DNA of 48,624 bases. It comes from Candidatus Pacearchaeota archaeon. GTDB lineage: Archaea; Nanobdellota; Nanobdellia; Pacearchaeales; GW2011-AR1. Positions within the stretch are counted from its first letter, which is position 1. Each line of letters starts with the position of its first letter. The notes under the pieces are model-generated. The model ran no database searches. It was not told where the DNA came from and saw only the letters and a program-made list of their open reading frames with translations. The stretch spans positions 1 to 48,624 of the forward strand of contig NZDU01000041.1 in NCBI GenBank assembly GCA_002688875.1, read 5' to 3'. Positions 431 to 45,557 of this stretch are shown in pieces. Made by a program: the position numbers and the translations under genes.

Positions 431-637
431 TTATCCCAACTGAGGCTTCCTCTGCCTTCTAGGTTTAATTTTTAATTTTGTCCTTCTCCAATTCCTTCTT
501 ATACTTGTTATAGCCGAAGGATGCACCCTTTTCCCACTTCCATACTTCCTCAAAACAGCCCAAACCGGCGCCCACTTCGTTCTCTTCCCAGCTTTACTCA
601 ACTTAATCTTCCTTTGCTGTTTTCGTTTTTCTCTCAT
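431..637 (-). CDS. rpl39e: 50S ribosomal protein L39e (eL39)
   Basis: KLSKAGKRTKWAPVWAVLRK...RRNWRRTKLKI matches the eL39 core. ATGA overlap with the upstream ORF. Confidence 0.85.
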   Translation of the reverse strand: MREKRKQQRKIKLSKAGKRTKWAPVWAVLRKYGSGKRVHPSAITSIRRNWRRTKLKIKPRRQRKPQLG

Positions 638-1065
638 TGTTTAACCACTCCACTATTTAATGATTCTAAATATTTAACCAATTTACTCCTCTTTTCCTTT
701 ACAATTTCTTTTAACTCATTAGGAATATGAGAAAAATTATCTGCAAAATAAAATCCAGGGTCGCCCCTCACTTTTAATCCTGTACTATTATCTTCACCAT
801 TCAAAAATACAACTACACCATCATAATCAGCCCTAGGATTTCTATCTTCATCTTTTTTATAGGCCACAAGTAATGGATTAAAATTATCAAGTTTTATAAC
901 AGCTCCTTCACGATTCCCAGGTACCATTGGTTTCACTTCATAATTTCCAGATTCATACACAATTTTATACTCACCCCTACTTCTTACTGGGAATAATTCA
1001 AAACAACTTTCCCCATCAACAAATCTAAGTCCTCTATGTTTATCTAACGTAGCATTTCCTATCAT
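634..1065 (-). CDS. Hypothetical protein (143 aa), unskewed codon class, embedded in the r-protein operon
   Basis: ORF track. ATGA overlaps at both ends (1062-1065 with rps19e, 634-637 with rpl39e). Codons end in A/T, unlike the neighbours. No family recognised. Confidence 0.6.
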   Translation of the reverse strand: MIGNATLDKHRGLRFVDGESCFELFPVRSRGEYKIVYESGNYEVKPMVPGNREGAVIKLDNFNPLLVAYKKDEDRNPRADYDGVVVFLNGEDNSTGLKVRGDPGFYFADNFSHIPNELKEIVKEKRSKLVKYLESLNSGVVKQ

Positions 1066-1481
1066 TCTATCCCCTCCATAAATTCCTTACCTTTATCCGT
1101 CAACCTTCTCCCAGCTCTCTTCCCACTCTCATTAAATCTCTCAATCAACCCCTCACTCTCCGCCTGTTGCAACAAAACTCTAATCATCTTCCCACTAGCC
1201 TTCTTAAATTTCTCAGGCTTCATACCCCGATTCTTCTTACTTCCATACCTAGTCTTCAACCTATTAACTCCCACAACATTCTGAACATAAATCTGCCGAA
1301 GTATACTCGCCGCCCGCTTAAACCAAAAATCATTATCAAGCGGAGGCAACTTCTTACTCAACCCACTCTTAACATACAAACTCCACTCCGGCTGCTCAAA
1401 CCCCTCCAACTTCTTAAGAGCCTCAGCTAACTTAGAATTATACTCATTCGCATTCATCGAATACACTATACTGGTTTTCAT
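1062..1481 (-). CDS. rps19e: 30S ribosomal protein S19e (eS19)
   Basis: NSKLAEALKK...PEWSLYVKSG...DFWFKRAASILRQIYV..VGVNRLKTRYG...LLQQAESEGLI is the typical eS19 pattern. Confidence 0.9.
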   Translation of the reverse strand: MKTSIVYSMNANEYNSKLAEALKKLEGFEQPEWSLYVKSGLSKKLPPLDNDFWFKRAASILRQIYVQNVVGVNRLKTRYGSKKNRGMKPEKFKKASGKMIRVLLQQAESEGLIERFNESGKRAGRRLTDKGKEFMEGIE

Positions 1482-1699
1482 TTTTTGTTTTACACTCCAT
1501 CAGGCATCCCTTTCGGAATTAGATAAGCTCGCAGAGCAAATTAACCTAATTATATCTAGAAAAAGAGTTTATAAATCTTACTCTATTGTTCTTATCATGA
1601 AAAATTCATCTAAAAAAATGACAAACCTCTTAAATCTCTTACTTCTAATAGCATATATATCTTTATTAATATTCATAATAATAAATCTATTATCATAAA

Positions 1700-1930
1700 A
1701 TGTCAGGCCCAGGATTCGGAAAAAAACTCTTAGGAAAAGCAAATGTCTATATCCACGAAAAAGGCAAAAGCAACGCACGCATCACTCATATAGACATAGA
1801 ACTCCCCGAACTAAACAAAATAATAAAACCAAAAGAACCAACCTATGTCCAAGGAAAACCTGGAGGGGTATTCATAGGATTAAAAAAGGAAATGATTAAG
1901 AGAGCCGAGGAATTATTAGACAAAGATTAA
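1700..1930 (+). CDS. Hypothetical small protein (76 aa)
   Basis: ORF track. Codons end in A/C, as expected for a resident plus-strand gene left of the skew switch. Confidence 0.45.
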   Translation: MSGPGFGKKLLGKANVYIHEKGKSNARITHIDIELPELNKIIKPKEPTYVQGKPGGVFIGLKKEMIKRAEELLDKD

Positions 1931-1974
1931 CCAAAAAAGAAACTTCTAAACCACTCTAATATTTGAGCAAAGAT

Positions 1975-2715
1975 ATTATAATGCGCCCGTAAAACTATCC
2001 AGCCTTTAGGCTGTGGATATAAGGGCGCGCGACAGTAGAAACGCTTTTACAATTCTAAGTATTAATAAAAGAGAGTTAGATTGTAACTCTCTCTAGAATT
2101 TCCAGTGATAGTTAGAACTTTCTCAAACTAATTAAATCTTTCTCTTGCTATTGCAAGAGAAAAAAGGAGACAAAAATGAAACAACAAACACTTAGCGAGA
2201 GCTATAAAGAAATTAAATATGAGAAGATCAACCATATGGTTGGAATGTCGATGTGGCACTTTGAGTGGTGCTCAAAGTATAGATATAAAGCTTTCAGGAA
2301 ATGGAAGTACAAAAAGTTAGCAGAAGGTTGCTTACGAAAGGCAGCAACCGAGTATGGAATCAAATGGTTTGAGCTTGATGTTCAACCAAACCATGTTCAT
2401 GGGAGCGCATCCATTCCAATGACCATGACTCCTTCAAAGGCTTTAGGACTTTTGAAAGGAAGAGCATCTAAACTGTTCTTTGAGAGGTGTCCAAATATGA
2501 GACTTCGATACAAGAAGGGGCATTTGTGGAGTCGAGGAAAGTTTGCAGCTTCATTAGGATTTGTCAATCTTGATGTAGTGAACAATTACATCAAGAATCA
2601 AGACAAACATCATAAAACAAAGTGGATTACGGAGTGACTAGAGGTTAGGAAGCTGGGGTCCGGAGCGAAGCGGAGGACTGGCCCGAAGGGCCACCCTTTA
2701 GGGCCCAGAGGATGT
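1975..2715 (+). mobile_element. IS200/IS605-family element (tnpA only); ends approximate
   Basis: tnpA is flanked by GC-rich imperfect hairpins. Left: gcgccc(1983-1988)...gggcgc(2023-2028), enclosing tatccagcc/ggctGTggata. Right: GUCC-GGA-GC-GAA-GC-GGA-GGAC (2658-2678), ggccc-gaa-gggcc (2680-2692), and the alternative gggcc...ggccc (2688-2706). Confidence 0.55.
2176..2637 (+). CDS. tnpA: IS200/IS605-family Y1 (HUH) transposase TnpA, or a RAYT-like relative
   Basis: WHFEWCSKYRYK..., HUH motif in QPNHVHGSASIP, and LWSRGKFAASLG. C-terminal helix VVNNYIKNQ aligns with the catalytic-Tyr helix of IS608 TnpA (VVKQYIENQ). 153 aa. Confidence 0.85.
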   Translation: MKQQTLSESYKEIKYEKINHMVGMSMWHFEWCSKYRYKAFRKWKYKKLAEGCLRKAATEYGIKWFELDVQPNHVHGSASIPMTMTPSKALGLLKGRASKLFFERCPNMRLRYKKGHLWSRGKFAASLGFVNLDVVNNYIKNQDKHHKTKWITE

Positions 2716-2750
2716 CACAAAGTATGTATTAGAGTTTAAAAGTGTATCTT

Positions 2751-3316: not shown

Positions 3317-3469
3317 ATGAATAATAAATATGAAAGGATTACCATAACCTTACCACAAGATGTTTTGCAAAAATTCAGAGAATTCTGCAAAAGAAATGGG
3401 ATTAATATGAGCTCTAGAATATCCTTGCTTGTGGAAAAAGATTTGAAAGAAAAAAATCCTCTAAAATAG
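3317..3469 (+). CDS. Ribbon-helix-helix (CopG/MetJ-like) protein, 50 aa
   Basis: Own translation: MNNKYERITITLPQDVLQKFREFCKRNGINMSSRISLLVEKDLKEKNPLK. The beta-strand ITITLP followed by two helices is the RHH pattern. It falls below the ORF-track size cutoff. Confidence 0.6.
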   Translation: MNNKYERITITLPQDVLQKFREFCKRNGINMSSRISLLVEKDLKEKNPLK

Positions 3470-3491: not shown

Positions 3492-4385
3492 ATGAAACAT
3501 GTTGAAATGAGGGATAGAGTGGGAACTTTGCTTAGAAAAGATCTTTCTATAGATGAGATCTCAAAAAAATTATCCATTCCAGTTGGGACTCGGTATCAAA
3601 AAGGAAGCGTTAAATGGTATAAGTATTGTTTAGTAGCTAAAGAAAATCAGAAAAGGGCCATCGAGAAACATTCTGATTTGTATAGTCGAGCTGGGAAAAT
3701 TGCTCAACAAAAGCATCCTTGGTTGGGGAGGATGTTGGGTAAGAAGTATGGTCCTATTCAGGGAAAGATAAATGCTAAAAGATTGAAGGGAAATTCTGAT
3801 TATTTCTCGAAAATGGCTAAGAAACTACATAAAATTAATATAAATCATTCTAGAGATAACATGAGGAAAGCTCATGAAACAATGAAGAAGAAAGGAACTT
3901 TTATTGAGCATCAAAGAAAGGCTGCTCTAAAATGTATGGAAAAAAACCCTGGTCAGTTAAAAAATATGTCTAAGGTAGCACATGAAAAGTATTCATTGGC
4001 ATTGTTAGCCCTTGAGAGTAAAAGGAGAAATTATCCTTATAGGTTTATGAATTGTAGTTTTGATTCAAATGAAGAAATGATATTTTGTGAGAAATTAGTT
4101 GAGTTTGGATTAATTGAAAGACCTATTGAGGGGTTAAATGTTCATTTTAGGATTGGAAGATCTCATGTTGATTTTTTTATTCAAAATAGGATATTTATTG
4201 AATATCATCCTCCGAGGAAGTTTGGTAGAGTAATAGAAACAGAAGAAAGCTACCATAATGATAGGAGGAGTTTGTTAAATGCCTATGGATTTAGTAACTA
4301 TCCTTTAATTGTTGTTTCTAATTTGAGGGAGGCCGAGGATAAATTAATGAATGTTAAGAAGCTTATCCAGAATCTTGAAAATTAA
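3492..4385 (+). CDS. HTH protein with NUMOD3-like basic repeats and a C-terminal Vsr/DUF559-like PD-(D/E)xK nuclease-like domain (homing-endonuclease-like)
   Basis: N-terminal LSIDEISKKLSIPVGT (HTH). Repeats such as NHSRDNMRKAHETMKKKG and EHQRKAALKCMEKNPG. C-terminal FDSNEEMIFCEKLVEFGL...GRSHVDFFIQNRIFIEYH. The function call is inference. Confidence 0.55.
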   Translation: MKHVEMRDRVGTLLRKDLSIDEISKKLSIPVGTRYQKGSVKWYKYCLVAKENQKRAIEKHSDLYSRAGKIAQQKHPWLGRMLGKKYGPIQGKINAKRLKGNSDYFSKMAKKLHKININHSRDNMRKAHETMKKKGTFIEHQRKAALKCMEKNPGQLKNMSKVAHEKYSLALLALESKRRNYPYRFMNCSFDSNEEMIFCEKLVEFGLIERPIEGLNVHFRIGRSHVDFFIQNRIFIEYHPPRKFGRVIETEESYHNDRRSLLNAYGFSNYPLIVVSNLREAEDKLMNVKKLIQNLEN

Positions 4386-9563: not shown

Positions 9564-9917
9564 ATGGTTGGACATAACAATAGTGTGAAACAAAGGCGAG
9601 GAAATGCTCAATATCTGGCTTCTAAAAGATTAGGAGAACCATTATATACTTCAAGTCAGGTGAGTAGAATGATAAAAGAATCTGTTGGTAGGGGGTATAA
9701 GCTTCCTGGGAAGGCAGCAATTGAATCTGAAGTAAGAGCTGGTAATTTTGGTATAGATATAAGTGAATTTGATGGTATTGAGATTGATTCAGCTAATGGA
9801 GATAATAGATATCAAATTAGAAAATCTGATTTAGTTAAGGTTGTTAGAGTTATTGATTTAGGAATAGATGTTGATGATCTGGTTACTGCTGCTTGTGTTC
9901 TGGGTTTTAAAACTTAG
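9564..9917 (+). CDS. Hypothetical protein (117 aa), unskewed class
   Basis: ORF track. TATA-like gtttataagg lies about 25-30 nt upstream. No family recognised. Confidence 0.5.
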   Translation: MVGHNNSVKQRRGNAQYLASKRLGEPLYTSSQVSRMIKESVGRGYKLPGKAAIESEVRAGNFGIDISEFDGIEIDSANGDNRYQIRKSDLVKVVRVIDLGIDVDDLVTAACVLGFKT

Positions 9918-11302: not shown

Positions 11303-11521
11303 ATGGGATATAGTGAAAGATTTGAAAGAGTTATGGAAGGATTAGCTGAATTATCTAGGTCTGGTAATTATGAAGCTAGTATGGTGGCTAGACCTCATCT
11401 GAGATATTTGACACATCATACTGCTAAGGGTTATATGCATGAATCTGGAGGGAATCGTGTGGATTTGGATCCGCTTGAGAGATTTATTTCTAATTGTCTG
11501 AGTACTAGTGTTTCAGAATAA
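11303..11521 (+). CDS. Hypothetical protein (72 aa), unskewed class
   Basis: ORF track. TATA tttataaat lies about 28 nt upstream. Confidence 0.4.
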   Translation: MGYSERFERVMEGLAELSRSGNYEASMVARPHLRYLTHHTAKGYMHESGGNRVDLDPLERFISNCLSTSVSE

Positions 11522-13284: not shown

Positions 13285-14112
13285 ATGGTAAGGTTAATTC
13301 AGGTCTTGAGTGAAGCGAAAGGTTCAAATCATGGAGGTGTATGTAGATTTGATTTTCCGAAGACTAGTGATAATAATAATGAATTTTATGTGAAGCATTG
13401 TAGTAGAATGAATCATAAAGGAGATAGTAGTTTTGCTTATCAGCATCAACCGGTTTATGAGGCGGTCACTTGTGAAATGGCAAGAATATTGGGTCTTGAG
13501 ACTCCAAATTTTTATGTTCTAATGAATGATCAAGATAACTTGGGATTTGTATCTTTTGGGGGGCAGAAAATGGATATTAAGCCTCATCAACCTTTTTATT
13601 TTGCGTCTGAAATGTTAGTTCATCCAAAAAATGAGAGTATTAGCGAGGCTGCTAAAATCTTAGAACAAGAAGAATTCTATTTGAATATGTTAATGATTTC
13701 AGATGTCGTTGGTAAAAAGAATAATTATATTCATGATCCTCATTCTGATCGAGTGATTTATGTTGATTTGGGGTGTAATATTGTTGATGCTCATGAAAAT
13801 ATTATGGCGTTTAAAACAAGACATAAATCTCCATTAAAGAAAAAAGATAGAAGGAATGCTGTGAAAAAGTTTAGTAGATATGAAATTGTAACTAAGAAAG
13901 GCGAAGGGGGTAAAATTGGCTTGATGGATTTTTTGGAATCTCCAAGAGATATGAAATTACTTTCTTTGAATCCAAGGGGAAATGTTAGATTAGATTCTTT
14001 AATCCCTAAGATTGAAATTGATGAAATTGTTGAGAGATTGATAGCTGGATTGTATTTGGGTAAGGGACTTTCAAAAAATGGTGATAACATTTATCTTAAT
14101 AGAATTAAATAA
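13285..14112 (+). CDS. Hypothetical protein (275 aa), unskewed class
   Basis: ORF track. TATA aggtttataag lies about 30 nt upstream. No secure family. Confidence 0.55.
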   Translation: MVRLIQVLSEAKGSNHGGVCRFDFPKTSDNNNEFYVKHCSRMNHKGDSSFAYQHQPVYEAVTCEMARILGLETPNFYVLMNDQDNLGFVSFGGQKMDIKPHQPFYFASEMLVHPKNESISEAAKILEQEEFYLNMLMISDVVGKKNNYIHDPHSDRVIYVDLGCNIVDAHENIMAFKTRHKSPLKKKDRRNAVKKFSRYEIVTKKGEGGKIGLMDFLESPRDMKLLSLNPRGNVRLDSLIPKIEIDEIVERLIAGLYLGKGLSKNGDNIYLNRIK

Positions 14113-17918: not shown

Positions 17919-18164
17919 ATGGATAAGAAGGTTATTGATAAGAAAGTTGTAGGGAAGGAAGCGAAGGGGATTCTTGATAAGTTTGCTAAGGCTCTTGAGA
18001 GGGTTGATTCTAAGGATAGTGATAGCTGGTTTGTGGATAGGGATGAGTTTGAGAGGGAGGAGGGGAAAGGGGAGAAGTGTTGGGAGTTTAAGGAGAAGTT
18101 TTTGGGGAATGCTCCGAGGGTGGATGGGGATTTTGTGGTTGCGGAGAAAGGAGGGTGGAAGTGA
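17919..18164 (+). CDS. gatC: GatC-like amidotransferase subunit (tentative)
   Basis: ILDKFAKALERVD...FKEKFLGNAPRVDGDFVVAEKGGW resembles the GatC C-terminal half (..nAP...dGyf.VP). Sits immediately upstream of gatA. Confidence 0.5.
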   Translation: MDKKVIDKKVVGKEAKGILDKFAKALERVDSKDSDSWFVDRDEFEREEGKGEKCWEFKEKFLGNAPRVDGDFVVAEKGGWK

Positions 18165-18436
18165 TGGTTTTGAGTAGAAGTAGACTTAAGGTTCTTCAGG
18201 ATTCTTATGAGCGTCTTGAGATGTATGTTAAATCTAAGAGGAATAGTGAGGGAAAGTTAGCTGAGAATTTATTCTGGGATGGTAAATTTAATGGATTGGA
18301 TTCTAATTTCTGTAATTTAGTTAATAGTTATGATAGTTCAGATACAGATGTTTCAGATTGCAAGGTTAGATATGATTCGCTTATGGAATTTGTGGAATCA
18401 GAAGCTTCGGAGGTATCTGGAAATCAGGAGTCTTAA
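18164..18436 (+). CDS. Hypothetical protein (90 aa), unskewed class, between gatC-like and gatA
   Basis: ATG at 18164 overlaps the gatC-like stop (TGATG). Its stop at 18434-18436 lies 1 nt before the gatA ATG. Confidence 0.45.
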   Translation: MVLSRSRLKVLQDSYERLEMYVKSKRNSEGKLAENLFWDGKFNGLDSNFCNLVNSYDSSDTDVSDCKVRYDSLMEFVESEASEVSGNQES

Positions 18437-19853: not shown

Positions 19854-20237
19854 ATGGTAAATTATGATAGGTATACTGATTCCACTGTACATGTTGCTAA
19901 TGAAATTCGAGATAGATTGATCGAGTTTTATCATGAGATTCATGTTGCAAATTTATCTTTTTTTGGATTCCCTTATGGGCATATTGTGGGGGGTTTGAGA
20001 AATAAATTAGATGTAGGTTCAAAGTGTACTCCAGAAGAGATTGCTAAGGCTTATATAAATGAATGGAATGATGAAGAAGTTTTACTTTGTTCTGTTGAAC
20101 CAGTTCAATCCAATGGTGAAGTGGGTAAAATATTTGTATATTCGCCGGATAGAGTGGTATTGGATCGATGTGAAAAAGTTGCTAAATTAATTCATGAGGA
20201 TATGAAAGTAGAAGAATATTTTGGTCATTTGGTGTAA
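19854..20237 (+). CDS. Hypothetical protein (127 aa), unskewed class
   Basis: ORF track. No family recognised. Confidence 0.5.
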   Translation: MVNYDRYTDSTVHVANEIRDRLIEFYHEIHVANLSFFGFPYGHIVGGLRNKLDVGSKCTPEEIAKAYINEWNDEEVLLCSVEPVQSNGEVGKIFVYSPDRVVLDRCEKVAKLIHEDMKVEEYFGHLV

Positions 20238-20357
20238 GTCTTGATGGTTATACTAACTTAATGTTCAATATAAAGATAGTAGGTTATAAGATTTAGGTTA
20301 ATTGTAACTCAGGGCAGTTTTAGGAAGATTTTTAAATTAAGGGTTGATTTCTGAAGT

Positions 20358-20480
20358 ATGGGATTTAAGGAAGAATTGAGTAATGTGATTGAGTTAAGTA
20401 GTGAGGAGCTTGGGAAGATTCCTAAGGGGTTTCAGAGGATTGGGGATATTGTGATTATTGGTTTGTTGAGATTTGAATAA
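20358..20480 (+). pseudogene. Truncated duplicate of the trm5 5' end (40 codons)
   Basis: MGFKEELSNVIELSSEELGKIPKGFQRIGDIVIIGLLRFE* compared with the intact MGFKEELVGVIELSSEELDKIPKGFQRIGDIVIVDLSRFD at 21157. The DNA similarity starts upstream of the ATG. Confidence 0.8.
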
Positions 20481-20490
20481 GAGGATTTAT

Positions 20491-20514
20491 ATATGTGTAT
20501 GCATATGTGTATGC
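20491..20514. promoter_or_regulatory. 12-bp tandem repeat atatgtgtatgc x2 abutting the vapB ATG (possible operator)
   Basis: Read directly at 20491-20502 and 20503-20514. Contains atgcat palindromes. Confidence 0.5.
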
Positions 20515-26453: not shown

Positions 26454-26869
26454 GTATAGGCTCTCCTGGTTTCTAGTAAAGTTTCTTTCCCTGTTTCTAA
26501 ATCAACTCTGGTTATTTCTGATCTCATTAATCCAAAACCTCTTATACCAAACAAAAATCTTGTTTCATAAACTAAAAATTCTTGAGATTGTTCGGTATTT
26601 CTAAGGTCATATACGTTTGTTCCTTCTGAAAACCATCCTTTATAGTAATTGATTCTAAATTGACGGTCATTTAAGGATGGGATGGTTATTTGAATATCTG
26701 TTCTCCATATACTTCTATCTATTTTCGGATTGTTATCATATAGTAGATTTCTAGCTAGTTTATGCAATTTTAACCTTGGACCTGTTCTTTCTCTTACTAA
26801 GTTTATTTTTCTGATTAGGTCTCCCAAGTTTTCACATTGATCTTCTATGCTTTGTCTAGTGGTTGTCAT
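26450..26869 (-). CDS. Hypothetical protein (139 aa), unskewed class, first gene of a 4-gene operon
   Basis: ORF track. ATGA overlap with the decarboxylase start. Confidence 0.5.
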   Translation of the reverse strand: MTTTRQSIEDQCENLGDLIRKINLVRERTGPRLKLHKLARNLLYDNNPKIDRSIWRTDIQITIPSLNDRQFRINYYKGWFSEGTNVYDLRNTEQSQEFLVYETRFLFGIRGFGLMRSEITRVDLETGKETLLETRRAYT

Positions 26870-27569: not shown

Positions 27570-28160
27570 ATGGCAACAAGTCCTTTAGTTAGTAATAAAC
27601 AAATACATGGTGTTGCTGGTGCTTATGAGGTTTTTAAGGAACTGGATTTACAAAGGTTTAGGGAGGGAGGGTTTACGACTAAAGTTGTGTATTATTTTGG
27701 AAAAGGCAACACTCCACAGGGATCTGAATCTGCTTTATTTAAGGGGGTTGCATTGTGTTATCAAAGAGTTTTTCTTCCAAGTCCGGTTTATACTTTTGAC
27801 AATCAACTTTCTAATAAAGGAGTTCTTCTAGCTACTGTTCTAAATGAACCTCCAAAAAAACTAGAATTTTGTCTGACTGCACGAACAGACTCAGAATATT
27901 TTGGATTACAGGAATTTAGAGATCGGTCTGTACCAGAACTATTTGCACGAGGGTATGATAGAGATAATCTGGATCATGACTCTGTATTTTGGCTTCATCT
28001 TGGTAAGGGAGAACCAGAAGAAGAGCCTTTTATTTCTGTAAGTTCTCATGGACTTTGGGTGCAAAGGGATTCCTTGGATGGTAGGACGGTTTTCACTGAA
28101 CGAGATTTAGATGGGTTTCGTTCTTTATCTAATTCTTCTTTATCACATAAAAATTTATAA
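27570..28160 (+). CDS. Hypothetical protein (196 aa), unskewed class
   Basis: ORF track, with the start moved to the ATG at 27570. Confidence 0.5.
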   Translation: MATSPLVSNKQIHGVAGAYEVFKELDLQRFREGGFTTKVVYYFGKGNTPQGSESALFKGVALCYQRVFLPSPVYTFDNQLSNKGVLLATVLNEPPKKLEFCLTARTDSEYFGLQEFRDRSVPELFARGYDRDNLDHDSVFWLHLGKGEPEEEPFISVSSHGLWVQRDSLDGRTVFTERDLDGFRSLSNSSLSHKNL

Positions 28161-31312: not shown

Positions 31313-31594
31313 TTAGAAGTATTTGCTTGATTCTTCAACTAAACTTTGTTTTTTATTATATGCTGATTTGTAGGTTTGGAGTTCAATAGGTGAAAGTCTA
31401 CTTCTTAATGCGTTTATTCCTAAGGGCCCTCTTTGTTCCTGATTTTGTTCTTCTCTCATGATAATTGCTGCTAATTCGCCTATTTCTTTTGATGATGCCT
31501 TTCTTTTTAGATTGTTGATATATGTTAAAAGGAACATACTGAAAGCTCTGCTAGAATAATTCTTCTTACTGGAGGGAGGTTCTACTTCGTCCAT
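31313..31594 (-). CDS. Hypothetical protein (93 aa), unskewed class
   Basis: ORF track. Confidence 0.45.
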   Translation of the reverse strand: MDEVEPPSSKKNYSSRAFSMFLLTYINNLKRKASSKEIGELAAIIMREEQNQEQRGPLGINALRSRLSPIELQTYKSAYNKKQSLVEESSKYF

Positions 31595-31704: not shown

Positions 31705-32109
31705 ATGGCAGGTCGTGTGACTTTAGATAAATTTGATGTTTTTTATGATTTAAGAGGTTCTTTTCCTAATAATGAGGCTCTTGGAGAAAGGACTAGTGTT
31801 GATAGATTTGGAAAATTATTGGAAATGATTGGTGAATGTTCTAACATTAAAGATACGTTTATTACGAGTTATGGTTCGAATGAGAAGTTTATGTTTGATG
31901 AGGTTAGTGTAGGCCAAACGGGAGTCACTGTTAACCCTGTTATTCTTAGTTATAAGGATGGAGGATTTGAATATCTAAAAGGTTTTGCGGGAAGTGGGAA
32001 GGCCGGATTTAAGTATAATTGTAGATTGGTTGTTCCTAGTGATAGATTTATTTTATTTTACACTCATAAGGTTGAAGATGAAAAATTGTTAGCTGAAGTT
32101 TCTAAATAA
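31705..32109 (+). CDS. Hypothetical protein (134 aa), unskewed class
   Basis: ORF track. TATA atttataat lies about 28 nt upstream. Its stop is 1 nt from the stop of the convergent aIF1A gene. Confidence 0.5.
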   Translation: MAGRVTLDKFDVFYDLRGSFPNNEALGERTSVDRFGKLLEMIGECSNIKDTFITSYGSNEKFMFDEVSVGQTGVTVNPVILSYKDGGFEYLKGFAGSGKAGFKYNCRLVVPSDRFILFYTHKVEDEKLLAEVSK

Positions 32110-34440: not shown

Positions 34441-34716
34441 ATGGGATCAGATGTTGGTGAGGAGAAGATATTGTATATTTATAGGAATAGAGTTGTTGGA
34501 GATGTAGGGGGTCCTTTCTATATTTTTTCTCCTAATTATAAGGGTTCAGGTAGAGGAGAGGTTAGGCTGGTTCCGAAATTTAGAGAATGGGTTAAAAATG
34601 CTGAGAAAGAGGGATATAGACTAAGGTTAGATGAGGATGATAATGGTAAACTCCAACATAGGCTTAATGAAGATGATATGGCTTTGATTGGTAGGCCTTG
34701 GTCAAGAGTTTGTTAG
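34441..34716 (+). CDS. Hypothetical protein (91 aa), unskewed class
   Basis: ORF track. TATA aggtttataaa lies about 27 nt upstream. Confidence 0.45.
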   Translation: MGSDVGEEKILYIYRNRVVGDVGGPFYIFSPNYKGSGRGEVRLVPKFREWVKNAEKEGYRLRLDEDDNGKLQHRLNEDDMALIGRPWSRVC

Positions 34717-35503: not shown

Positions 35504-35995
35504 ATGAAATATTTAATATATTTTAATTCAAGTAGGGAGTTGTCTGATCTCATTGCTGGACATTCTTTTGATGTGATTCCTGGGATTGGTTTGCATTCAA
35601 CTCTTTGTTATTTTGTTGGTGATAATGCTAATGAAAGGAGTTTAATTGAAGATTTAGATGGGATTAATTTTCAAGGGTTTAATGTTAAAACAGGGAGTTT
35701 GGATACTTTTGATGATAATTTAGTTTTAAGGCTGTTAAAGACTGATGAATTATCTTTATTACATAATGAGATTTATTCTGTTGTTAGAAGGCATGTTGTT
35801 GGGGATGGTTGTGGTGTTTTAGATGAGTATTTTGGAGAGAATTATAATCCTCATATAACCTTGTCTAGATCGTCATCTGAACTTGATAGAGGGGTAGGTG
35901 ATTTAAATGGAGTGGAGTTTTCTGTGTCTAATTATGTGCTTGCGAGAAAATATCAGGAAAATTGGGTTGATATTAGGGCTTTTTCAGTTGGTTAG
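35504..35995 (+). CDS. 2H phosphoesterase superfamily protein (LigT / 2'-5' RNA ligase-like), unskewed class
   Basis: Two HxTx motifs: GLHSTLCYF and NPHITLSRS. Start taken at the ATG at 35504. Confidence 0.6.
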   Translation: MKYLIYFNSSRELSDLIAGHSFDVIPGIGLHSTLCYFVGDNANERSLIEDLDGINFQGFNVKTGSLDTFDDNLVLRLLKTDELSLLHNEIYSVVRRHVVGDGCGVLDEYFGENYNPHITLSRSSSELDRGVGDLNGVEFSVSNYVLARKYQENWVDIRAFSVG

Positions 35996-37249: not shown

Positions 37250-37585
37250 ATGTTGAGTGATTATATTGATGCTGAGATTCCTGTTGATGAGTATTTTTGT
37301 AATAGGGAACGGTTTAATGTTTTTCCATTTGATGCTCATGCTCCTCAGTTGTTTGAAATAAATAAGAGGTTGTTCAAGGTTTCTAAATCTAATGTTTTGT
37401 TCGGTCCTGATCCTTTACTTAGTGCCAAAAATTTTCCTAGGTTGGATGGATCTAGGGATATTGATGTTTATACATATGTTCATACTAGTAATCCTTCTTA
37501 TGATAAGAGGTTTCATAAAGTAAGTTTAAGATCTGCTCTTGAGAATTTAGATGAGTTATTTAAGCGGATGTCTGAATCTTTTTGA
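37250..37585 (+). CDS. Hypothetical protein (111 aa), unskewed class
   Basis: ORF track. Starts 4 nt after the upstream stop and ends 3 nt before the stop of the convergent mcm gene. Confidence 0.45.
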   Translation: MLSDYIDAEIPVDEYFCNRERFNVFPFDAHAPQLFEINKRLFKVSKSNVLFGPDPLLSAKNFPRLDGSRDIDVYTYVHTSNPSYDKRFHKVSLRSALENLDELFKRMSESF

Positions 37586-40827: not shown

Positions 40828-41262
40828 TTAGTCTCTTTGATAGTTTTCTATTTTTCTGAAGGGTTTATATCCAATTTCTTCTGATATTTCTAATACTTCA
40901 AAATCTATTTTGTATTTTTTATGGTCAGTAAATCTGTGTGGAAAGTCCATGAATTTGATACCCCATCCTTTATCTGTCATAGTTTCTAATTTTTCATCAG
41001 GGATTTCAACCAATCCTTTTTTTACTTTTCTGGAAATGTTTTTCTTCATGAATTTGTGAGCAATTAGATGGTTTGTAAAAAGAGGGATTATTACTTTTCC
41101 GTTTTCTTCTCTTAGTGCAAGTAAGGGGAGCCATCCTTCATTTATGCATTCATATCTAATGTTTTGGGTAGAAAGATTTCCGTCATTATATAGAATTGCG
41201 TATTGTTTTTTTGTTGGTTCTTTTCTTTGTTCGGATGTATTGTCTGGTATATTTCGTAACAT
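40828..41262 (-). CDS. Hypothetical protein (144 aa), unskewed class
   Basis: ORF track. TATA-like cttaaataatt (minus strand) lies about 25 nt upstream. Confidence 0.5.
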   Translation of the reverse strand: MLRNIPDNTSEQRKEPTKKQYAILYNDGNLSTQNIRYECINEGWLPLLALREENGKVIIPLFTNHLIAHKFMKKNISRKVKKGLVEIPDEKLETMTDKGWGIKFMDFPHRFTDHKKYKIDFEVLEISEEIGYKPFRKIENYQRD

Positions 41263-42069: not shown

Positions 42070-42525
42070 ATGGAACTTGATTCAAGTGTGTTAACAGGTT
42101 ATTTGAGAGATTCTGTTCGGGATATTGGGAAAATTAGAGGTAGATTATATAGGATTCAGGGAAATCCTAATTTTCAAGGAGAGCCATTTACTTTAGATGT
42201 TTCTGGTGGGTTGGATAAGGTTGTGAGTAGTATGCAGGATCTTCAAAGGAAAAATAGACTTTCAACTTGGGATAAAGATAATGTGGAACCGTATGATTTT
42301 AAGATATTTAGTGCTGGTTATAACTTTTGTAATGATGTTATGCTATATTTTTTATTTAATGGGAATGTTCCAGAAGATAATTTGAGGGGGGTTGTGGGAA
42401 GGATTAAATTAAGAGGGGCTGATGAGTTATCTAGAGTGATTGAATATGCGGGTAGTGTTGAAAAGAAGATTAGTCATTATAGAGGTAAGTTGAATGAAGA
42501 AAGAAATGTTAGTATGGTTCAATAA
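42070..42525 (+). CDS. Hypothetical protein (151 aa), unskewed class
   Basis: ORF track. TATA-like attataaat lies about 25 nt upstream. Confidence 0.5.
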   Translation: MELDSSVLTGYLRDSVRDIGKIRGRLYRIQGNPNFQGEPFTLDVSGGLDKVVSSMQDLQRKNRLSTWDKDNVEPYDFKIFSAGYNFCNDVMLYFLFNGNVPEDNLRGVVGRIKLRGADELSRVIEYAGSVEKKISHYRGKLNEERNVSMVQ

Positions 42526-44276: not shown

Positions 44277-44333
44277 CTTTTTTATAGAAAAGGTTGGTAG
44301 GTTTTTATAGGTTTAGATAAATTAGATTTTGGT

Positions 44334-44615
44334 CTAGAGTTCTTCCACTTCGCAAGGGGTTGAAATGGCTTCTAATCCTGATGATGATATATCTTTTCCT
44401 TTGTTATTTCTTAAGGTATATCTAGTTATTCTTTCTAATGGTATTTCTAGATTAAGTTCTGTATCTTCTCCTCCTACTCCTACATAAAATACTTTTAATA
44501 AGCTTATATAACCTTTATATTTTCCAGTAGGTTCTTGATTTGTAGTCCATTCTAGATATATTTCGTCACGTATATTTGCATGTTCTAAAAATTTATCTCT
44601 TTCTTCATCATTCAT
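44334..44615 (-). CDS. Hypothetical protein (93 aa), unskewed class
   Basis: ORF track. Confidence 0.45.
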   Translation of the reverse strand: MNDEERDKFLEHANIRDEIYLEWTTNQEPTGKYKGYISLLKVFYVGVGGEDTELNLEIPLERITRYTLRNNKGKDISSSGLEAISTPCEVEEL

Positions 44616-44656
44616 ATTTTGTTATGGTTTAAAAAGTATAAAAAGATTGTTATGTT

Positions 44657-45055
44657 ATGGTGTTGGATTATATTTTTGTGTTGGCTGTGATTGGGTTTTT
44701 GTTGTCGTTGTATTTTTATTTTGTTGGTAGGAGGTTGTTGGTTGATAGGAATTATAGGGCTGGATGTGATTTGAGTGAGGGGGTTTCTTGTACGAAGGTT
44801 GCTAGTAGTGATTATAGTAAGATGTTTGGTTTTTCTAATGCTTTGATTGGGATTGGGTTTTACTTAATTGTTTTGTTGTTGGCTTGGTTTTCGATTTATA
44901 ATTGGTTGTTTTGGTTGGAATTGTTTGCTTCGTTATTTTCGGTTTATTTGATTTATTTGATGTTTAGGATTAGGTTGTTGTGTGTGGTTTGTGTTGGGAT
45001 TCATGTGGTGAATTTTTTGTTATTGTGGTTGAGTTATGTTAGGGTTTTTGGGTAG
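44657..45055 (+). CDS. VKOR-family (vitamin K epoxide reductase-like) membrane thiol oxidoreductase
   Basis: Loop cysteines C..SEGVSC, then SKMFGFSNALIGIGFY, and CVVC in the last helix. Confidence 0.7.
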   Translation: MVLDYIFVLAVIGFLLSLYFYFVGRRLLVDRNYRAGCDLSEGVSCTKVASSDYSKMFGFSNALIGIGFYLIVLLLAWFSIYNWLFWLELFASLFSVYLIYLMFRIRLLCVVCVGIHVVNFLLLWLSYVRVFG

Positions 45056-45065
45056 TTGGTTAGAA

Positions 45066-45557
45066 TTAGAATGGAGTCCAGATTCCTTGATTGAATTTAA
45101 TTTCTGGAGGATTTGCAGTTTCTTGAAGTCTTTTTGCGGATACGTATTTCTGGATATAGCATATATAGCTGATTAATTGATCATTGTATTCCCTAAAAGT
45201 TACTGTTTGATTTTTTGATCTTTTATATTTTTTAAATTGTAATCTAATTCGGTTTTTAACTATGTGGTCCTCATCAGCTATTTTTTCAATTTCTCTAATT
45301 TGTTTTTCTTTGATACCTTTTCTAGGATAGCTGAATGCATTTCCATTTTTAAAAACTATTATTTTATTTGCTCTATCATCTTCCAAGAAATCTTGGAGTA
45401 ACCATCTAGAATTTGCATAAACTATTGGTTTTGTAATTCTGCAATAACTTGGTGTTGTATTGTTTGGATCATTTGTGTTGCTTATTCCCCAATAATTGAG
45501 ATATTCAACATATTTTTCAAAAGTGATAGTTTCGAATTTAAAATCTCTGAGGTCCAT
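45066..45557 (-). CDS. Hypothetical protein (163 aa), unskewed class
   Basis: ORF track. Confidence 0.5.
   Translation of the reverse strand: MDLRDFKFETITFEKYVEYLNYWGISNTNDPNNTTPSYCRITKPIVYANSRWLLQDFLEDDRANKIIVFKNGNAFSYPRKGIKEKQIREIEKIADEDHIVKNRIRLQFKKYKRSKNQTVTFREYNDQLISYICYIQKYVSAKRLQETANPPEIKFNQGIWTPF

What the first reader, a model, noticed from the sequence alone, without database searches (positions are those of the whole stretch)
634..45557. Orphan genes with a different codon dialect sit one by one between conserved genes, several translationally coupled to them
Conserved genes obey a strict orientation rule. Plus-strand genes use G/T-ending codons (AAG, GAG, GGG, TTG, AAT, TAT). Minus-strand genes right of 2.75 kb use A/C-ending codons (AAA, GAA, AAC, TAC, TTC, ATC, CTA, ACC). 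About 23 ORFs ignore the rule and use A/T-ending codons on either strand. They are 634-1065, 3317-3469, 3492-4385, 9564-9917, 11303-11521, 13285-14112, 18164-18436, 19854-20237, 20515-21125, 22518-23261, 23376-24233, 24983-25393, 26450-26869, 27570-28160, 31313-31594, 31705-32109, 34441-34716, 35504-35995, 37250-37585, 40828-41262, 42070-42525, 44334-44615 and 45066-45557. Almost none has a recognisable family. Those that do are accessory types (VapBC, RHH, TrmB, LigT-like). They do not form islands; over long stretches they alternate with core genes almost one-for-one. Several share ATGA or TGATG overlaps with skewed neighbours: 634-1065 inside the S19e-L39e operon, 24983-25393 and 26450-26869 interleaved with the decarboxylase and methyltransferase, and 18164-18436 between gatC-like and gatA. 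The plus-strand ones have their own GGTTTATAAG-type TATA 25-32 nt upstream. Recent acquisition would explain the composition but not the precise coupling. Long residence would explain the coupling but not the missing skew. I cannot resolve this from the sequence, which is why it is interesting. Possibilities are a cassette-like turnover mechanism, a family of selfish gene-sized inserts, or protection from the mutational process.
Basis: partly seen in the sequence, partly recalled or inferred. Interest (0 to 1): 0.8.

Follow-up and report, generated by a model that had tools for sequence, protein, structure and literature searches.

The report
Fast-turnover single genes escape strand skew
In this marine Pacearchaeota genome, one DNA strand is steadily converting A to G, and the roughly 23 'odd-dialect' genes are lineage-specific genes that come and go one at a time between conserved genes too quickly to pick up that change.

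Summary
The window is a marine (TARA) Pacearchaeota (DPANN) contig with extreme strand asymmetry.

**Composition.** At fourfold sites, in + strand terms, conserved genes are T .53-.57, G .29-.37, A .09-.13, C .02 on either coding strand. They do follow the strand rule in direction. What they lack is the A-to-G step.

**Conservation.** Class membership predicts conservation. Skewed genes have orthologues in up to 79 related species. The orphans have essentially none.

**Turnover.** A sister species (FtsZ 98% identical) is collinear except for clean gene-sized indels that remove o13, o14 and o16. The S19e-L39e slot holds o1 here, an unrelated gene in a near relative, and nothing in two others.

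**Coupling.** The ATGA overlaps are created at insertion: o13 sits exactly at the old OrnDC start codon, and o1 sits three codons before the old S19e stop.

**Best explanation (0.65).** A scattered, fast-turnover flexible gene set whose residence time is shorter than the amelioration time. No shared ends, repeats or integrase were found, so a dedicated cassette system is not supported. One orphan, o6, keeps its slot in distant relatives and remains unexplained.

The parts
634..1065 (-). o1, orphan inserted between rpS19e (1062-1481) and rpL39e (431-637)
   Evidence: No Pfam, PHROG or PADLOC hit. ATGA overlaps at both ends. The slot is empty in L100 and L101 and holds an unrelated 90-aa ORF in L097. 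The insert is flanked by TGGAG[G/T]G and lies 3 codons before the old S19e stop.
3317..3469 (+). RHH_5 (CopG-like) small orphan
   Evidence: Pfam RHH_5, E 1e-6. Essentially unskewed.
3492..4385 (+). o3, 297-aa orphan
   Evidence: No family hit. No relative on viral contigs. Orphan-type composition.
9564..9917 (+). o4 orphan between RsmB and GatD
   Evidence: No Pfam hit. GC3 .14. TATA-like box at -29.
11303..11521 (+). o5 orphan between GatD and epimerase
   Evidence: No Pfam hit. The same slot holds a NYN-domain gene in L106 and is 39 nt long in one other relative.
13285..14112 (+). o6, kinase-like 'orphan' directly upstream of GatE
   Evidence: 140 representative homologues; the four that carry a source name are Pacearchaeota/Woesearchaeota/Nanoarchaeia hypothetical proteins. 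Also directly upstream of GatE in L103 and L108. Replaced by unrelated genes in L105 and L106. Model pLDDT 93; the 50 PDB fold matches listed are all kinase-type folds, but the scores are weak.
18164..18436 (+). o7 orphan between gatC-like and GatA
   Evidence: No Pfam hit. GTGATG overlap with gatC-like. The gatC-GatA gap is -1 to 17 nt in 4 relatives and holds other genes in 16.
19854..20237 (+). o8 orphan
   Evidence: No Pfam match reaches its cutoff (RimP_N, E 0.004, below threshold). No PADLOC hit. Orphan-type composition.
20473..21125 (+). vapB (to 20751) and vapC (20754-21125) toxin-antitoxin cassette
   Evidence: Pfam VAPB_antitox and PIN. Flanked by the 159-nt direct repeat.
20318..20476 (+). 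Left copy of the 159-nt direct repeat (promoter plus first ~40 codons of Trm5/TYW2); the right copy is 21117-21275
   Evidence: the repeat finder family D1, 81% identity, spacing 799 nt. It is the only orphan-flanking repeat above the null. The left copy is called as a 40-aa TYW2_N fragment.
22109..22429 (+).
   Evidence: Pfam CSD. GC3 .19, G+T index .58, no orthologue in the 80 loci.
22518..23261 (-). TrmB-family regulator, orphan-type
   Evidence: Pfam TrmB, 6e-17. Homologues occur in relatives, in one checked case in a different slot.
23376..24233 (+). o11, 285-aa orphan
   Evidence: No family hit. No viral relative.
24983..25393 (-). o12 orphan between OrnDC and methyltransferase-like n24234
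   Evidence: ATGA overlap with n24234 and a 14-nt overlap with OrnDC. The slot is 16-61 nt in 3 of 4 relatives.
26450..26869 (-). o13 orphan coupled to OrnDC
   Evidence: Absent from sister L015 as a clean 416-nt indel. Its only homologue among 5.8 billion proteins is itself. It uses the old OrnDC promoter and 5' UTR. Flanked by ATGAC.
27570..28160 (+). o14 orphan upstream of FtsZ
   Evidence: Window 27489-28139 is replaced by ~25 nt in L015. Has its own TATA box. The single-sequence model is uninformative (pLDDT 31).
31313..31594 (-). o15 orphan, the only one shared with sister L015
   Evidence: 88% aa identity to L015. dN/dS .55 and dS .106, against core dS .20-.35. Unrelated to the ORF in the same slot of L016.
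31705..32109 (+). o16 orphan next to eIF1A
   Evidence: Window 31643-32110 is absent from L015 as a clean indel. Has its own TATA box at -29.
   Evidence: No Pfam hit. No orthologue in relatives. G+T index .70.
34441..34716 (+). o17 orphan between aIF2-beta-like and OB-fold genes
   Evidence: No Pfam hit. The slot ranges from 33 to 5306 nt across 26 relatives.
35504..35995 (+). LigT-like orphan
   Evidence: Weak 2_5_RNA_ligase2 match below the Pfam cutoff. The slot is 85 nt in L016.
37250..37585 (+). o19 orphan; the most skewed of the class
   Evidence: No Pfam hit. G+T index .83.
40828..41262 (-). o20 orphan between MCM and TBP
   Evidence: No family hit. The MCM-TBP gap is 99-353 nt in 13 of 14 relatives, against 710 nt here.
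42070..42525 (+). o21 orphan between TBP and DNA ligase
   Evidence: No family hit. The gap is 81-113 nt in 3 of 6 relatives.
44334..44615 (-). o22 orphan
   Evidence: No Pfam hit. GC3 .11.
45066..45557 (-). o23 orphan between VKOR and rpL15e
   Evidence: No Pfam, PHROG or PADLOC hit.
1930..2750 (.). Point where the strand skew changes sign, occupied by an IS200-like element (Y1 transposase 2176-2637)
   Evidence: Skew profile. Pfam Y1_Tnp. The transposase gene itself is unskewed. Hairpins at 1983-2030 and 2139-2162.

Best explanation
The window comes from a marine Pacearchaeota lineage with a strong replication-strand-specific mutational pressure. On the G/T-rich strand, A becomes G, and more weakly C becomes T. 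This is the signature expected from deamination of the strand that is exposed as single-stranded DNA.

Genes that have stayed in this lineage for a long time have third positions driven almost entirely to G/T on that strand, whichever way they are transcribed. That produces the 'orientation rule'.

The roughly 23 orphans are the flexible part of the genome. They are single genes gained and lost one at a time at the junctions between syntenic core genes. Their residence times are shorter than the time needed to ameliorate. They therefore still look like ordinary Pacearchaeota genes: AT-rich third positions and only moderate skew.

Insertion looks illegitimate or microhomology-mediated. Some inserts bring their own leaderless promoter. 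Others land at a start codon or in the last codons of an operon gene. Selection keeps only those that leave the downstream essential gene translated, so the ATGA coupling exists from the moment of insertion.

Shown directly: the two composition classes, their link to conservation, the gene-sized indels against a sister species, and the junction anatomy.

Inferred: the deamination chemistry, the direction of each indel (insertion rather than loss), the source pool, and the insertion mechanism.
For: 1. **A single mutational axis separates the classes.** In + strand terms T is identical and C differs slightly; the large difference is A versus G. This holds in all 16 neighbour contexts.

2. **The axis appears active now.** Near-identical population contigs differ from the window at five isolated sites, and all five are A (window)/G (other) on the + strand. 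Four of six differences in a clustered tract at the end of L002 are of the same type. A/G mismatches are the commonest synonymous difference from sister L015.108 of purine sites, against .039 for C/T at pyrimidine sites.

3. **Composition class predicts conservation.** Skewed genes, including ones first seen without a Pfam hit (TYW3, nitroreductase, KH, gatC-like), have orthologues in 24-79 of the 80 related loci. Orphans have none, apart from o15 (sister species only) and the TrmB and VapBC families (Fisher p 6e-4).

4. **Direct turnover.** L015 (FtsZ 98% aa, dS .2-.35) is collinear, but o13, o14 and o16 are missing as clean indels. L015 carries its own orphan-type genes instead. The S19e-L39e slot holds o1 here, an unrelated 90-aa ORF in L097, and nothing in L100 and L101. 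The GatE-upstream slot holds three unrelated occupants in four lineages.

5. **Slots vary across the order.** Gaps between the same core pairs range from 0 to 5 kb across 80 species, and the occupants are mostly unrelated.

6. **The dichotomy tracks the core shift.** Across 66 loci, core and accessory genes match in composition except where the core G/(G+A) has risen. There the accessory genes stay near the order-wide baseline: L015 .74 vs .40, L093 .59/.36, L016 .54/.21, L045 .53/.33.

7. **The time scales fit.** Only about 30% of the purine-axis relaxation has happened since the L015 split. Even o15, which is shared with L015, is therefore not expected to be ameliorated.

8. **Composition follows residence time, not gene class.** An old selfish insert, the LAGLIDADG intein in MCM, is largely core-like. 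A real recent mobile gene, the Y1 transposase, is unskewed.

9. **Coupling is made at the junction**.
Against: - **o6 has orphan-type composition yet keeps its slot.** Its homologues sit directly upstream of GatE in two other lineages (L108, 55% identity; L103, 42%). This needs either slot-to-slot re-import or long residence without the shift.
- **Intergenic DNA also has the orphan-type A:G ratio** (G/(G+A) .44). This can be put down to promoter constraints or co-arrival with the orphans, but neither was shown.
- **No donor was found.** o13 has no homologue in 5.8 billion proteins. Three viral-contig scans were empty.
- **Insertion versus loss rests on parsimony.** It is inferred from outgroup gap sizes, not from a dated tree.
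- **Only about 7 kb of sister-species sequence was available.** Turnover is directly shown for 4 orphans (o1, o13, o14, o16). A further 8 have relatives with an empty slot.
- **All orphans are skewed in the resident direction.** This is expected only if donor skew is weak and partial in-situ change has occurred. With strongly skewed donors it would require insertion that preserves polarity.
- **o15 has lower dS than its neighbours** (.106 vs .22-.35). That fits later lateral spread, but it equally fits a locally lower mutation rate.
Confidence: 0.65

Rival explanations
1. The orphans are long-term residents that are shielded from the strand-specific A-to-G process, or sit at a different mutational equilibrium. 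An example would be a chromatin or silencing protein that coats AT-rich accessory genes. The differences between relatives would then be differential losses.
For: - o6 keeps its slot upstream of GatE in other lineages yet is unshifted.
- Intergenic DNA shares the orphan A:G ratio.
- o15 has about half the synonymous divergence of its neighbours.
- Every orphan carries skew in the resident polarity.
- Composition changes sharply at gene borders.
Against: - Differential loss alone would require ancestors that held every alternative occupant of every slot: three unrelated genes upstream of GatE and two in the S19e-L39e slot.
- Most relatives have empty slots.
- No sequence-context effect was found.
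- The MCM intein, also a non-core insert, is shifted.
- One of the five isolated A/G strain differences lies inside o6.
- No known mechanism gives replication-strand-specific mutation that spares individual 300-900 bp genes.
Confidence: 0.12
2. A dedicated gene-cassette or selfish-element system moves the orphans. Candidates are an integron-like recombination system, cargo mobilised by the IS200/IS605-type Y1 transposase, or replicative template switching that preserves strand polarity.
For: - Gene-sized, precise indels.
- The same slot is hit repeatedly by different genes.
- The same families appear in different slots: TrmB, VapC and a further small family shared between the gatC-GatA and KH-eIF1A slots.
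- A Y1 transposase lies in the window.
- 5-7 nt junction microhomologies at o1 and o13.
- vapBC is flanked by a 159-nt duplication, as a single-crossover integration would leave.
- Uniform skew polarity.
Against: - No repeat flanks any orphan except vapBC above the null.
- No terminal hairpins or shared end motifs.
- No integrase or attC-like sites.
- The orphans lie on both strands, with and without their own promoters.
- The o14 junction is a 25-nt-for-640-nt substitution rather than a clean insertion.
- The polarity argument is statistically weak once the weak donor skew is allowed for.
Confidence: 0.1
3. The difference reflects selection or biased gene conversion on core genes. Options are codon selection linked to expression, selection on GC3, or GC-biased conversion in recombining genes. 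It would not reflect age.
For: - Core genes have higher GC3 (.40 vs .22).
- CSD and FtsZ, which are probably highly expressed, deviate from the other core genes.
- Strain mosaics show that homologous recombination occurs.
Against: - Any AT-to-GC fixation bias strong enough to raise G:A five- to seven-fold should raise + strand C:T equally. Instead C is the same or lower in core genes.019-.021 vs .024-.045 at fourfold sites.
- The preferred codons reverse with gene orientation, so translational selection cannot be the cause.
- Ribosomal proteins S19e and L15e and factors TBP and eIF1A are fully shifted.
- Length explains little (rho .34).
Confidence: 0.05
4. The orphans are not real imported genes. 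They would be spurious ORFs or genes born de novo from AT-rich spacer DNA.
For: - Most have no homologue or family.
- o14 gives a pLDDT of 31.
- dN/dS is .55 for o15.
- Gene callers are unreliable in this skewed DNA.
Against: - ORFs of 90-297 codons nearly fill each insert in ~30% GC DNA, where stop codons are frequent (a simple base-frequency estimate, not computed with a tool here, puts a random 140-codon ORF at about 1e-5).
- GC at positions 1+2 (.36-.38) exceeds GC3 (.22), as in coding sequence.
- Several orphans have families: VapBC, TrmB, RHH, and the o6 family with a pLDDT 93 model.
- Many have proper -29 TATA boxes.
- The arrangement is identical in independent assemblies.
Confidence: 0.04

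Closest known systems
Compositionally atypical, unameliorated horizontally acquired genes and ORFans. [quoted passage not shown]
   Same: The genes are short, AT-richer, lineage-specific and fast-evolving (dN/dS .55). They have no homologues and are patchily distributed among close relatives. Composition is read as a clock of residence time.
   Different: - The informative axis is not GC content or codon adaptation. It is one strand-specific transition (A to G on the G/T-rich strand), so the same gene class looks different on the two coding strands.
- The genes are not in islands or next to integrases or tRNAs. They are interleaved singly, including inside a ribosomal-protein operon.
- No integrative element was identified.
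Replacement-type flexible genomic islands and HGT hotspots between conserved core genes, as described for marine bacteria and in surveys of bacterial HGT hotspots (own knowledge; not tested here).
   Same: The flanking core genes stay constant while the occupants are variable and unrelated between close relatives. The same family can sit in the same slot in distant lineages (o6).
   Different: - The slots are single genes, not multi-gene islands.
- Nearly every core-core junction varies across the order, rather than about 1% of junctions being hotspots.
- No imported flanking tracts are visible. Composition switches at the insert border.
Strand asymmetry of vertebrate mitochondrial DNA, where C-to-T and A-to-G deamination affects the strand exposed as single-stranded DNA (own knowledge; background in PMC3269012), and the strong G/C strand disparity reported in some CPR bacteria (PMC7143001).
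   Same: One strand is enriched in G and T. The effect is strongest at synonymous sites and independent of gene orientation. The overall magnitude (G:C about 2:1) resembles the CPR case (29.8% vs 15.0%).
   Different: - This is an archaeal chromosome.
- The A-to-G component varies greatly between close relatives: core G/(G+A) runs from .11 to .74 across Pacearchaeota.
- A search of the paper library for Pacearchaeota together with GC skew found nothing.
Type II toxin-antitoxin modules as mobile accessory genes (VapBC, RHH/MazE-type antitoxins, HipA-like kinases).
   Same: The orphans that can be typed are of this kind: VapB/VapC, an RHH_5 protein, and o6 with a HipA/CtkA-like kinase fold. A MazE-domain protein is an alternative slot occupant in L015.
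   Different: Most orphans have no detectable relation to toxin-antitoxin or defence families; the 10 scanned against PADLOC gave no hit. The o6 kinase assignment rests on weak fold matches (E 1e-3, TM about .3).

Membership tests
Recently acquired / flexible (accessory) genes | Composition departs from that of long-resident genes of the same genome | tested here: met
   The two-component mixture separates 23 of 24 listed ORFs. A:G at third positions is .28.18 in orphans and .11.36 in core genes.
Recently acquired / flexible (accessory) genes | Present or absent among close relatives while the flanking genes stay intact | tested here: met
   o13, o14 and o16 are absent from sister L015 as clean indels. 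o1 is absent from L100 and L101 and replaced in L097. This was testable directly for only 5 orphans; 4 are variable and 1 (o15) is shared.
Recently acquired / flexible (accessory) genes | An identifiable donor, or phylogenetic incongruence | tested here: inconclusive
   No donor was found. o15's dS is lower than its neighbours' and o6 is patchy but slot-specific. Both are suggestive only.
Integron-type gene cassette array | Each cassette is bounded by a conserved recombination site (attC-like imperfect inverted repeat) | tested here: not met
   No inverted repeats at the mapped insert ends. No shared flanking repeats.
Integron-type gene cassette array | An adjacent integrase and a common promoter, with cassettes in one orientation in one array | tested here: not met
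   No integrase appears in the precomputed Pfam lists for the called genes or in the Pfam scans run here. The orphans lie on both strands, are scattered over 45 kb, and many have their own promoters.
IS200/IS605-type (Y1 transposase) elements or their non-autonomous cargo derivatives | Subterminal hairpins at both ends of each mobile unit | tested here: not met
   Hairpins occur only around the transposase gene itself (1983-2030, 2139-2162). There are none at the ends of the o1, o13, o14 or o16 inserts.
IS200/IS605-type (Y1 transposase) elements or their non-autonomous cargo derivatives | A Y1 transposase is available in the genome | tested here: met
   Pfam Y1_Tnp for 2176-2637.
Replication-associated strand compositional asymmetry | The skew follows the DNA strand rather than the coding strand, is strongest at synonymous sites, and changes sign at a discrete point | tested here: met
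   Fourfold-site composition is the same for + and - genes in + strand terms. The sign changes at about 1.9-2.75 kb. Caveat: other assemblies end at 1975, so that junction rests on the window alone.
Replication-associated strand compositional asymmetry | Caused by deamination of exposed single-stranded DNA | not testable with these tools
   Inferred from the A-to-G plus C-to-T direction and the A/G-dominated strain differences. The chemistry and the repair-gene complement cannot be assessed from a 48-kb window.
VapBC type II toxin-antitoxin | An adjacent small antitoxin gene and a PIN-domain toxin gene | tested here: met
   VAPB_antitox 20473-20751 and PIN 20754-21125.

The most novel reading that the evidence does not exclude
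Pacearchaeota might have an undescribed way of adding and removing single genes at almost every core-gene junction. It would use microhomology, preserve strand polarity, and might be linked to replication-fork template switching. Alternatively, accessory genes might be physically shielded from strand-specific adenine deamination. Either would explain three things together: every orphan carries the ancestral level of skew in the resident polarity, o6 keeps its slot in distant lineages without shifting, and composition changes exactly at gene borders.
Probability: 0.12. Interest if true: 0.8.

Novelty: new variant of a known kind. Interest (0 to 1): 0.5.

Why it matters
**A residence-time clock.** If this reading is right, one strand-specific mutational process gives a built-in clock for each gene's residence time in an uncultured DPANN archaeon. 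A-to-G saturation at synonymous sites separates long-resident genes from newcomers gene by gene, without needing a phylogeny.

**Rapid gene turnover.** The clock suggests that about a third of the genes in this tiny genome turn over faster than synonymous sites saturate. They do so one gene at a time, and even inside a ribosomal-protein operon. That bears on how reduced symbiont-like genomes keep a large 'dark matter' gene pool.

**A possible mutator lineage.** Some Pacearchaeota lineages appear to have an unusually strong adenine-to-guanine strand bias. I found no report of this in the paper library. It could point to a repair or replication peculiarity.

**A practical warning.** The skew creates long antisense ORFs that mislead gene callers. 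Public calls in this region are often on the wrong strand.

Tried and rejected
1. **Metagenome scan with TYW3 (n26923)** to find strain-level relatives.
2. **Flanking direct repeats or target-site duplications.** Only vapBC exceeds the null.
3. **Terminal hairpins or IS200-type ends on mapped inserts.** None found.
4. **Sequence-context explanation of the A:G difference.** Rejected: the difference holds in all 16 contexts.
5. **GC-biased gene conversion or GC3 selection.** Rejected because + strand C is not raised in core genes.
6. **Imported flanking tracts (homologous exchange).**
   - The 40 codons of core genes next to o13 are core-like, and no consistent drop appears next to other orphans.
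   - The GatE N-terminus shows no recombination signal.
7. **A 'two-clock' idea, in which C-to-T is fast and A-to-G slow.** Rejected: A/G is the faster axis.
8. **A 'polarity puzzle'.** I first thought the uniform skew direction of the orphans required polarity-preserving insertion. Typical relatives have only weak skew (T .45, A .36, G .12, C .07). The uniform sign is therefore expected after partial in-situ change. Only 4 demonstrably recent inserts exist (4 of 4 concordant, p = .06). This is inconclusive.
9. **Comparing the two copies of the Trm5 5' duplication** for directional A-to-G change. Uninformative: 9 vs 7.
10. **Viral origin.** Three IMG/VR scans and the PHROGs scan were negative.
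11. **Rfam.** Only the two tRNAs were found.
12. **Single-sequence structure prediction of o14.** pLDDT 31, no information.
13. **o1 as the PDCD5-like protein** that sits between S19e and L39e in many archaea (recalled from memory). No Pfam match, and relatives have the two ribosomal genes adjacent.

Full report
**What the window is**

The window is an archaeal contig. Near-identical copies (99.7-100%) occur in several independent TARA Oceans and other marine assemblies, so its gene order is not an assembly artefact. A scan of species-representative genomes with its FtsZ found 80 related loci. Most carry Pacearchaeota, Woesearchaeota or Nanoarchaeota (DPANN) titles.

Base counts are T 18677, G 12072, A 12007, C 5868. 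GC skew is about -0.5 in the first 2 kb and +0.13 to +0.66 afterwards.

**Checking the observation**

I built a gene set from ORFs, from the public gene calls with their precomputed Pfam hits, and from my own Pfam scans. Public gene calls are often on the wrong strand here, because skewed genes carry long antisense ORFs.

The orientation rule holds for conserved genes (third positions, coding-strand terms):

| Class | A | C | G | T |
|---|---|---|---|---|
| Core, + strand | .11 | .02 | .40 | .48 |
| Core, - strand | .52 | .33 | .04 | .11 |

Left of about 2 kb the rule is mirrored.

A two-component mixture on third-position base frequencies is preferred over one component (BIC -613 vs -531). 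It puts 23 of the 24 listed ORFs in one cluster. That cluster also holds the Y1 transposase, n32638 (32638-32955) and three family-bearing genes. Cluster labels were not printed per gene; the cold-shock gene (22109-22429) and DUF5679 lie in the orphan range of the composition index. FtsZ is intermediate.

The statement that these ORFs 'ignore the rule' is wrong. Fourfold sites, expressed in + strand terms, show this:

| Class | T | G | A | C |
|---|---|---|---|---|
| Core, + genes | .53 | .37 | .09 | .02 |
| Core, - genes | .57 | .29 | .13 | .02 |
| Orphans, + genes | .54 | .16 | .26 | .05 |
| Orphans, - genes | .56 | .14 | .28 | .02 |

The orphans are strongly strand-skewed in the resident direction (chi-square p about 1e-42). 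T is identical in the two classes and C differs only slightly. The large difference is A versus G. It persists in all 16 neighbour contexts.

The other claims check out as follows.
- The ATGA and TGATG overlaps are as described.
- The -29 TATA-like box is real but is shared with core genes. It is the general leaderless promoter layout of this genome.

**Independent evidence that the classes differ biologically**

I ran tblastn with every window protein against the 80 related loci.
- Every skewed gene within range has orthologues in many species. This includes genes first seen without a Pfam hit, later typed as TYW3, nitroreductase and KH-domain, plus the gatC-like gene. They hit 24-59 loci; FtsZ hits all 80.
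- The orphans have none. The exceptions are o15 (sister species only), TrmB (8 loci, in one checked case in another slot) and VapB/VapC (1-2 loci).
- Composition cluster against conservation gives Fisher p = 6e-4.
- Pfam finds no family above its cutoff for the other orphans. PHROGs and PADLOC find nothing for the ten orphans scanned in each.
- o13 has no homologue other than itself among 5.8 billion proteins.

**Turnover shown directly**

L015 is a sister species. Its FtsZ is 98% identical at the protein level, nucleotide identity is 88-94%, and dS is .20-.35. It is collinear with window 26.1-32.5 kb except for clean gene-sized indels:
- 26454-26869, which is o13
- 27489-28139, which is o14
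- 31643-32110, which is o16

Only o15 is shared. L015 has its own orphan-type genes: a 90-aa ORF after FtsZ, and 578-aa and 311-aa genes after eIF1A, the latter with a MazE domain. L015 shows the same compositional dichotomy.

The S19e-L39e slot tells the same story. It holds o1 here. It holds an unrelated 90-aa ORF in L097 (S19e 86% identical). In L100 and L101 the two ribosomal genes are adjacent.

Across the 80 loci, the gaps between the same core pairs range from about 0 to 5 kb. Slot ORFs are mostly unrelated between species, and a few families recur in different slots. For o12, o13, o14, o15/o16, o20 and o21, most or many relatives have an empty slot. Parsimony therefore favours insertion in the window lineage.

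**How the coupling arises**

*o13.* In L015 the OrnDC start codon sits directly after a 5' UTR and TATA box. In the window that same UTR precedes the o13 start codon. o13 ends in ATGA on the OrnDC start. The insert is flanked by ATGAC.

*o1.* The insert lies three codons before the old S19e stop and is flanked by TGGAG[G/T]G. The old tail, GTTAAA-stop, now forms the C-terminus of o1. The insert supplies S19e with a new tail ending in ATGA.

*o14 and o16.* Each brings its own -29 TATA box.

*vapBC.* The cassette is flanked by a 159-nt duplication of the Trm5 promoter and first 40 codons, as a single-crossover integration would leave. No other orphan has flanking repeats above the null. No terminal hairpins were found.

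Coupling is therefore a property of the insertion junction, filtered by the need to keep the downstream gene translated. It is not evidence of long residence.

**What the compositional axis is**

Near-identical population contigs differ from the window at five isolated sites. All five are A in the window and G in the other contig, on the + strand. One of them lies inside o6. Four of six differences in a short divergent tract at the end of L002 are of the same type.

Against L015, A/G mismatches affect .108 of synonymous purine sites, where saturation would be .36. C/T mismatches affect .039 of pyrimidine sites.

Core genes have more G and the same or less C than orphans on the + strand. This fits more A-to-G and C-to-T change on one strand. 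That is the direction expected from deamination of exposed single-stranded DNA, as in mitochondrial heavy strands (own knowledge; hypoxanthine gives AT-to-GC, PMC8438529). The chemistry is inferred, not shown. An intact EndoV gene is present (47488-48177).

A GC-favouring fixation bias is rejected. It would raise + strand C in core genes along with G, and it does not.

**Why age is the best explanation**

- Across 66 related loci, core and accessory genes have the same composition unless the core G/(G+A) is raised. In those lineages the accessory genes stay near the order-wide baseline:

| Locus | Core G/(G+A) | Accessory G/(G+A) |
|---|---|---|
| L015 | .74 | .40 |
| L093 | .59 | .36 |
| L016 | .54 | .21 |
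| L045 | .53 | .33 |
| L020 | .48 | .25 |

- The window's orphans (T .50, A .28, G .18, C .05) look like that baseline (about T .45, A .36, G .12, C .07) after roughly a quarter to a third of the way toward the core state.
- Only about 30% of the purine-axis relaxation has occurred since the L015 split. Even the shared o15 is therefore not expected to be ameliorated.
- The four post-split inserts have the lowest mean G/(G+A).33 against .40 for the rest (my arithmetic; no significance test run).
- Two internal controls behave as age predicts. The LAGLIDADG intein inside MCM, an old selfish insert, is largely core-like. The Y1 transposase is unskewed.

**What does not fit cleanly**

*o6.* It is not an ORFan. 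It has 140 representative homologues; the four that carry a source name are Pacearchaeota, Woesearchaeota or Nanoarchaeia hypothetical proteins. In L108 (55% identity) and L103 (42%) it again lies directly upstream of GatE. The closer relatives L105 and L106 have unrelated 177-aa and 136-aa genes there. Either the family is re-imported slot to slot, or it is an old resident that did not shift. I found no recombination tract in GatE. Its AlphaFold model (pLDDT 93) matches only protein-kinase-like folds such as CtkA/HipA, Rio1 and OspG, and the scores are weak.

*Intergenic DNA.* It also has the orphan-type A:G ratio.

*o15.* Its dS (.106) is lower than its neighbours'. This could mean later lateral spread or a locally lower mutation rate.

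*Skew direction.* All orphans are skewed in the resident direction. Because typical donors are only weakly skewed, this is expected after partial in-situ change. I do not regard it as strong evidence for polarity-preserving insertion. With only four dated inserts, the question stays open.

**Comparison with what is known**

The phenomenon belongs with unameliorated acquired genes and ORFans (PMC3514957, PMC2718499; the amelioration concept is from my own knowledge).

It differs in three ways.
- The clock is one strand-specific transition.
- The genes are scattered singly at nearly every junction rather than in islands.
- Insertions reach into a ribosomal-protein operon between sister species.

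Strand disparity of similar overall size is reported for some CPR bacteria (PMC7143001). A search for Pacearchaeota together with GC skew found no paper in the library.

**Verdict**

The best explanation is a fast-turnover flexible gene set seen against a strong strand-specific mutational background (confidence 0.65).

Dedicated cassette machinery and shielding from mutation remain minority possibilities. It is a new variant of a known kind, of moderate interest.

Noticed in passing
window 1930-2750: The strand skew changes sign exactly where an IS200-like element sits: Y1 transposase 2176-2637, hairpins at 1983-2030 and 2139-2162, and a GC-rich structured tail at 2640-2710. The transposase gene is unskewed. 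The longest other assembly that reaches this region (L007) ends at window 1975, so the join across the flip rests on this window alone. It could be an origin or terminus, a rearrangement junction, or an assembly join at a repeated IS.
   Followed up: partly
window 20318-20476 and 21117-21275: A 159-nt direct repeat (81% identical) duplicates the promoter and first ~40 codons of Trm5/TYW2 on either side of vapBC. This is the scar expected from a single-crossover integration of a small circle carrying vapBC plus a Trm5 5' fragment.
   Followed up: partly
window 37589-40630 (-), MCM residues ~417-752: MCM (1013 aa) carries a LAGLIDADG-type intein. It starts at Cys after ...ANVQA and ends ...IAIQGN|T. 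Its third-position composition is largely core-like (G/(G+A) .58-.83 in 60-codon windows), which suggests long residence.
   Followed up: partly
window 28407-29489 (FtsZ): FtsZ is the most conserved gene but is only half shifted (G/(G+A) .59). It is internally patchy, from .30 to .94 in 40-codon windows. It is 97% identical in nucleotides to L015 over most of its length, while flanking genes are 88-91%. This may reflect mosaic recombination between lineages.
   Followed up: partly
window 9427, 13419, 40334, 42545, 46306; also 21495-21795: Differences between the window and near-identical contigs from other samples are almost all A (window) versus G (other) on the + strand. This suggests an ongoing strand-specific A/G mutational process.
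   Followed up: partly
window 12501-12707 vs L002; window 48310-48624 vs L005: There are strain-level mosaics. L002 has a 45-nt deletion and about 12% divergence over 160 nt, then becomes almost identical. L005 diverges from the window beyond 48346, inside n48170. These look like recombination or variable junctions between co-occurring strains.
   Followed up: no
window 13285-14112 (o6): o6 belongs to a family of ~270-aa proteins whose named members are all Pacearchaeota/Woesearchaeota/Nanoarchaeia. It has invariant N147, D161 and G163, and a confident model whose only fold matches are protein kinases (CtkA/HipA, Rio1, OspG). It lies next to GatE in three genomes. HipA-type kinases target aminoacyl-tRNA synthetases, so a functional link to the GatDE/AspRS cluster is conceivable.
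   Followed up: partly
window-wide, e.g. 9535, 11274, 13256, 26898, 31676: A TATA-like box starts 27-30 nt upstream of the start codon in about 29 genes of both classes. This implies mostly leaderless mRNAs.
   Followed up: partly
window 8467-9435, 9954-10955, 21175-21981, 42703-44124; locus L005: The extreme skew produces long antisense ORFs, for example 333 aa opposite GatD. Public gene calls for the DNA ligase region and others are on the wrong strand.
   Followed up: yes
window 1611-1830 (ORF 1700-1930 +): This stretch is 96% identical to L097, while the neighbouring S19e gene is only 85%. It contains a 76-aa ORF with no Pfam hit and an AT-rich palindromic tract (1643-1698). It could be a conserved small protein or an origin-proximal element.
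   Followed up: no
window 4363-5643 and 5706-8177 (-): Two fusion proteins: PNP_UDP_1 + phosphoribosyltransferase (426 aa), and PfkB kinase + S-adenosylhomocysteine hydrolase (823 aa).
   Followed up: no
loci L016 vs L106 (same MAG, GCA_002688335.1): The FtsZ block of this relative has the opposite skew polarity to the window, while its GatE block has the same polarity. A 1316-aa ORF next to its FtsZ is nearly unskewed. This implies a different position of these blocks relative to the replication origin.
   Followed up: no
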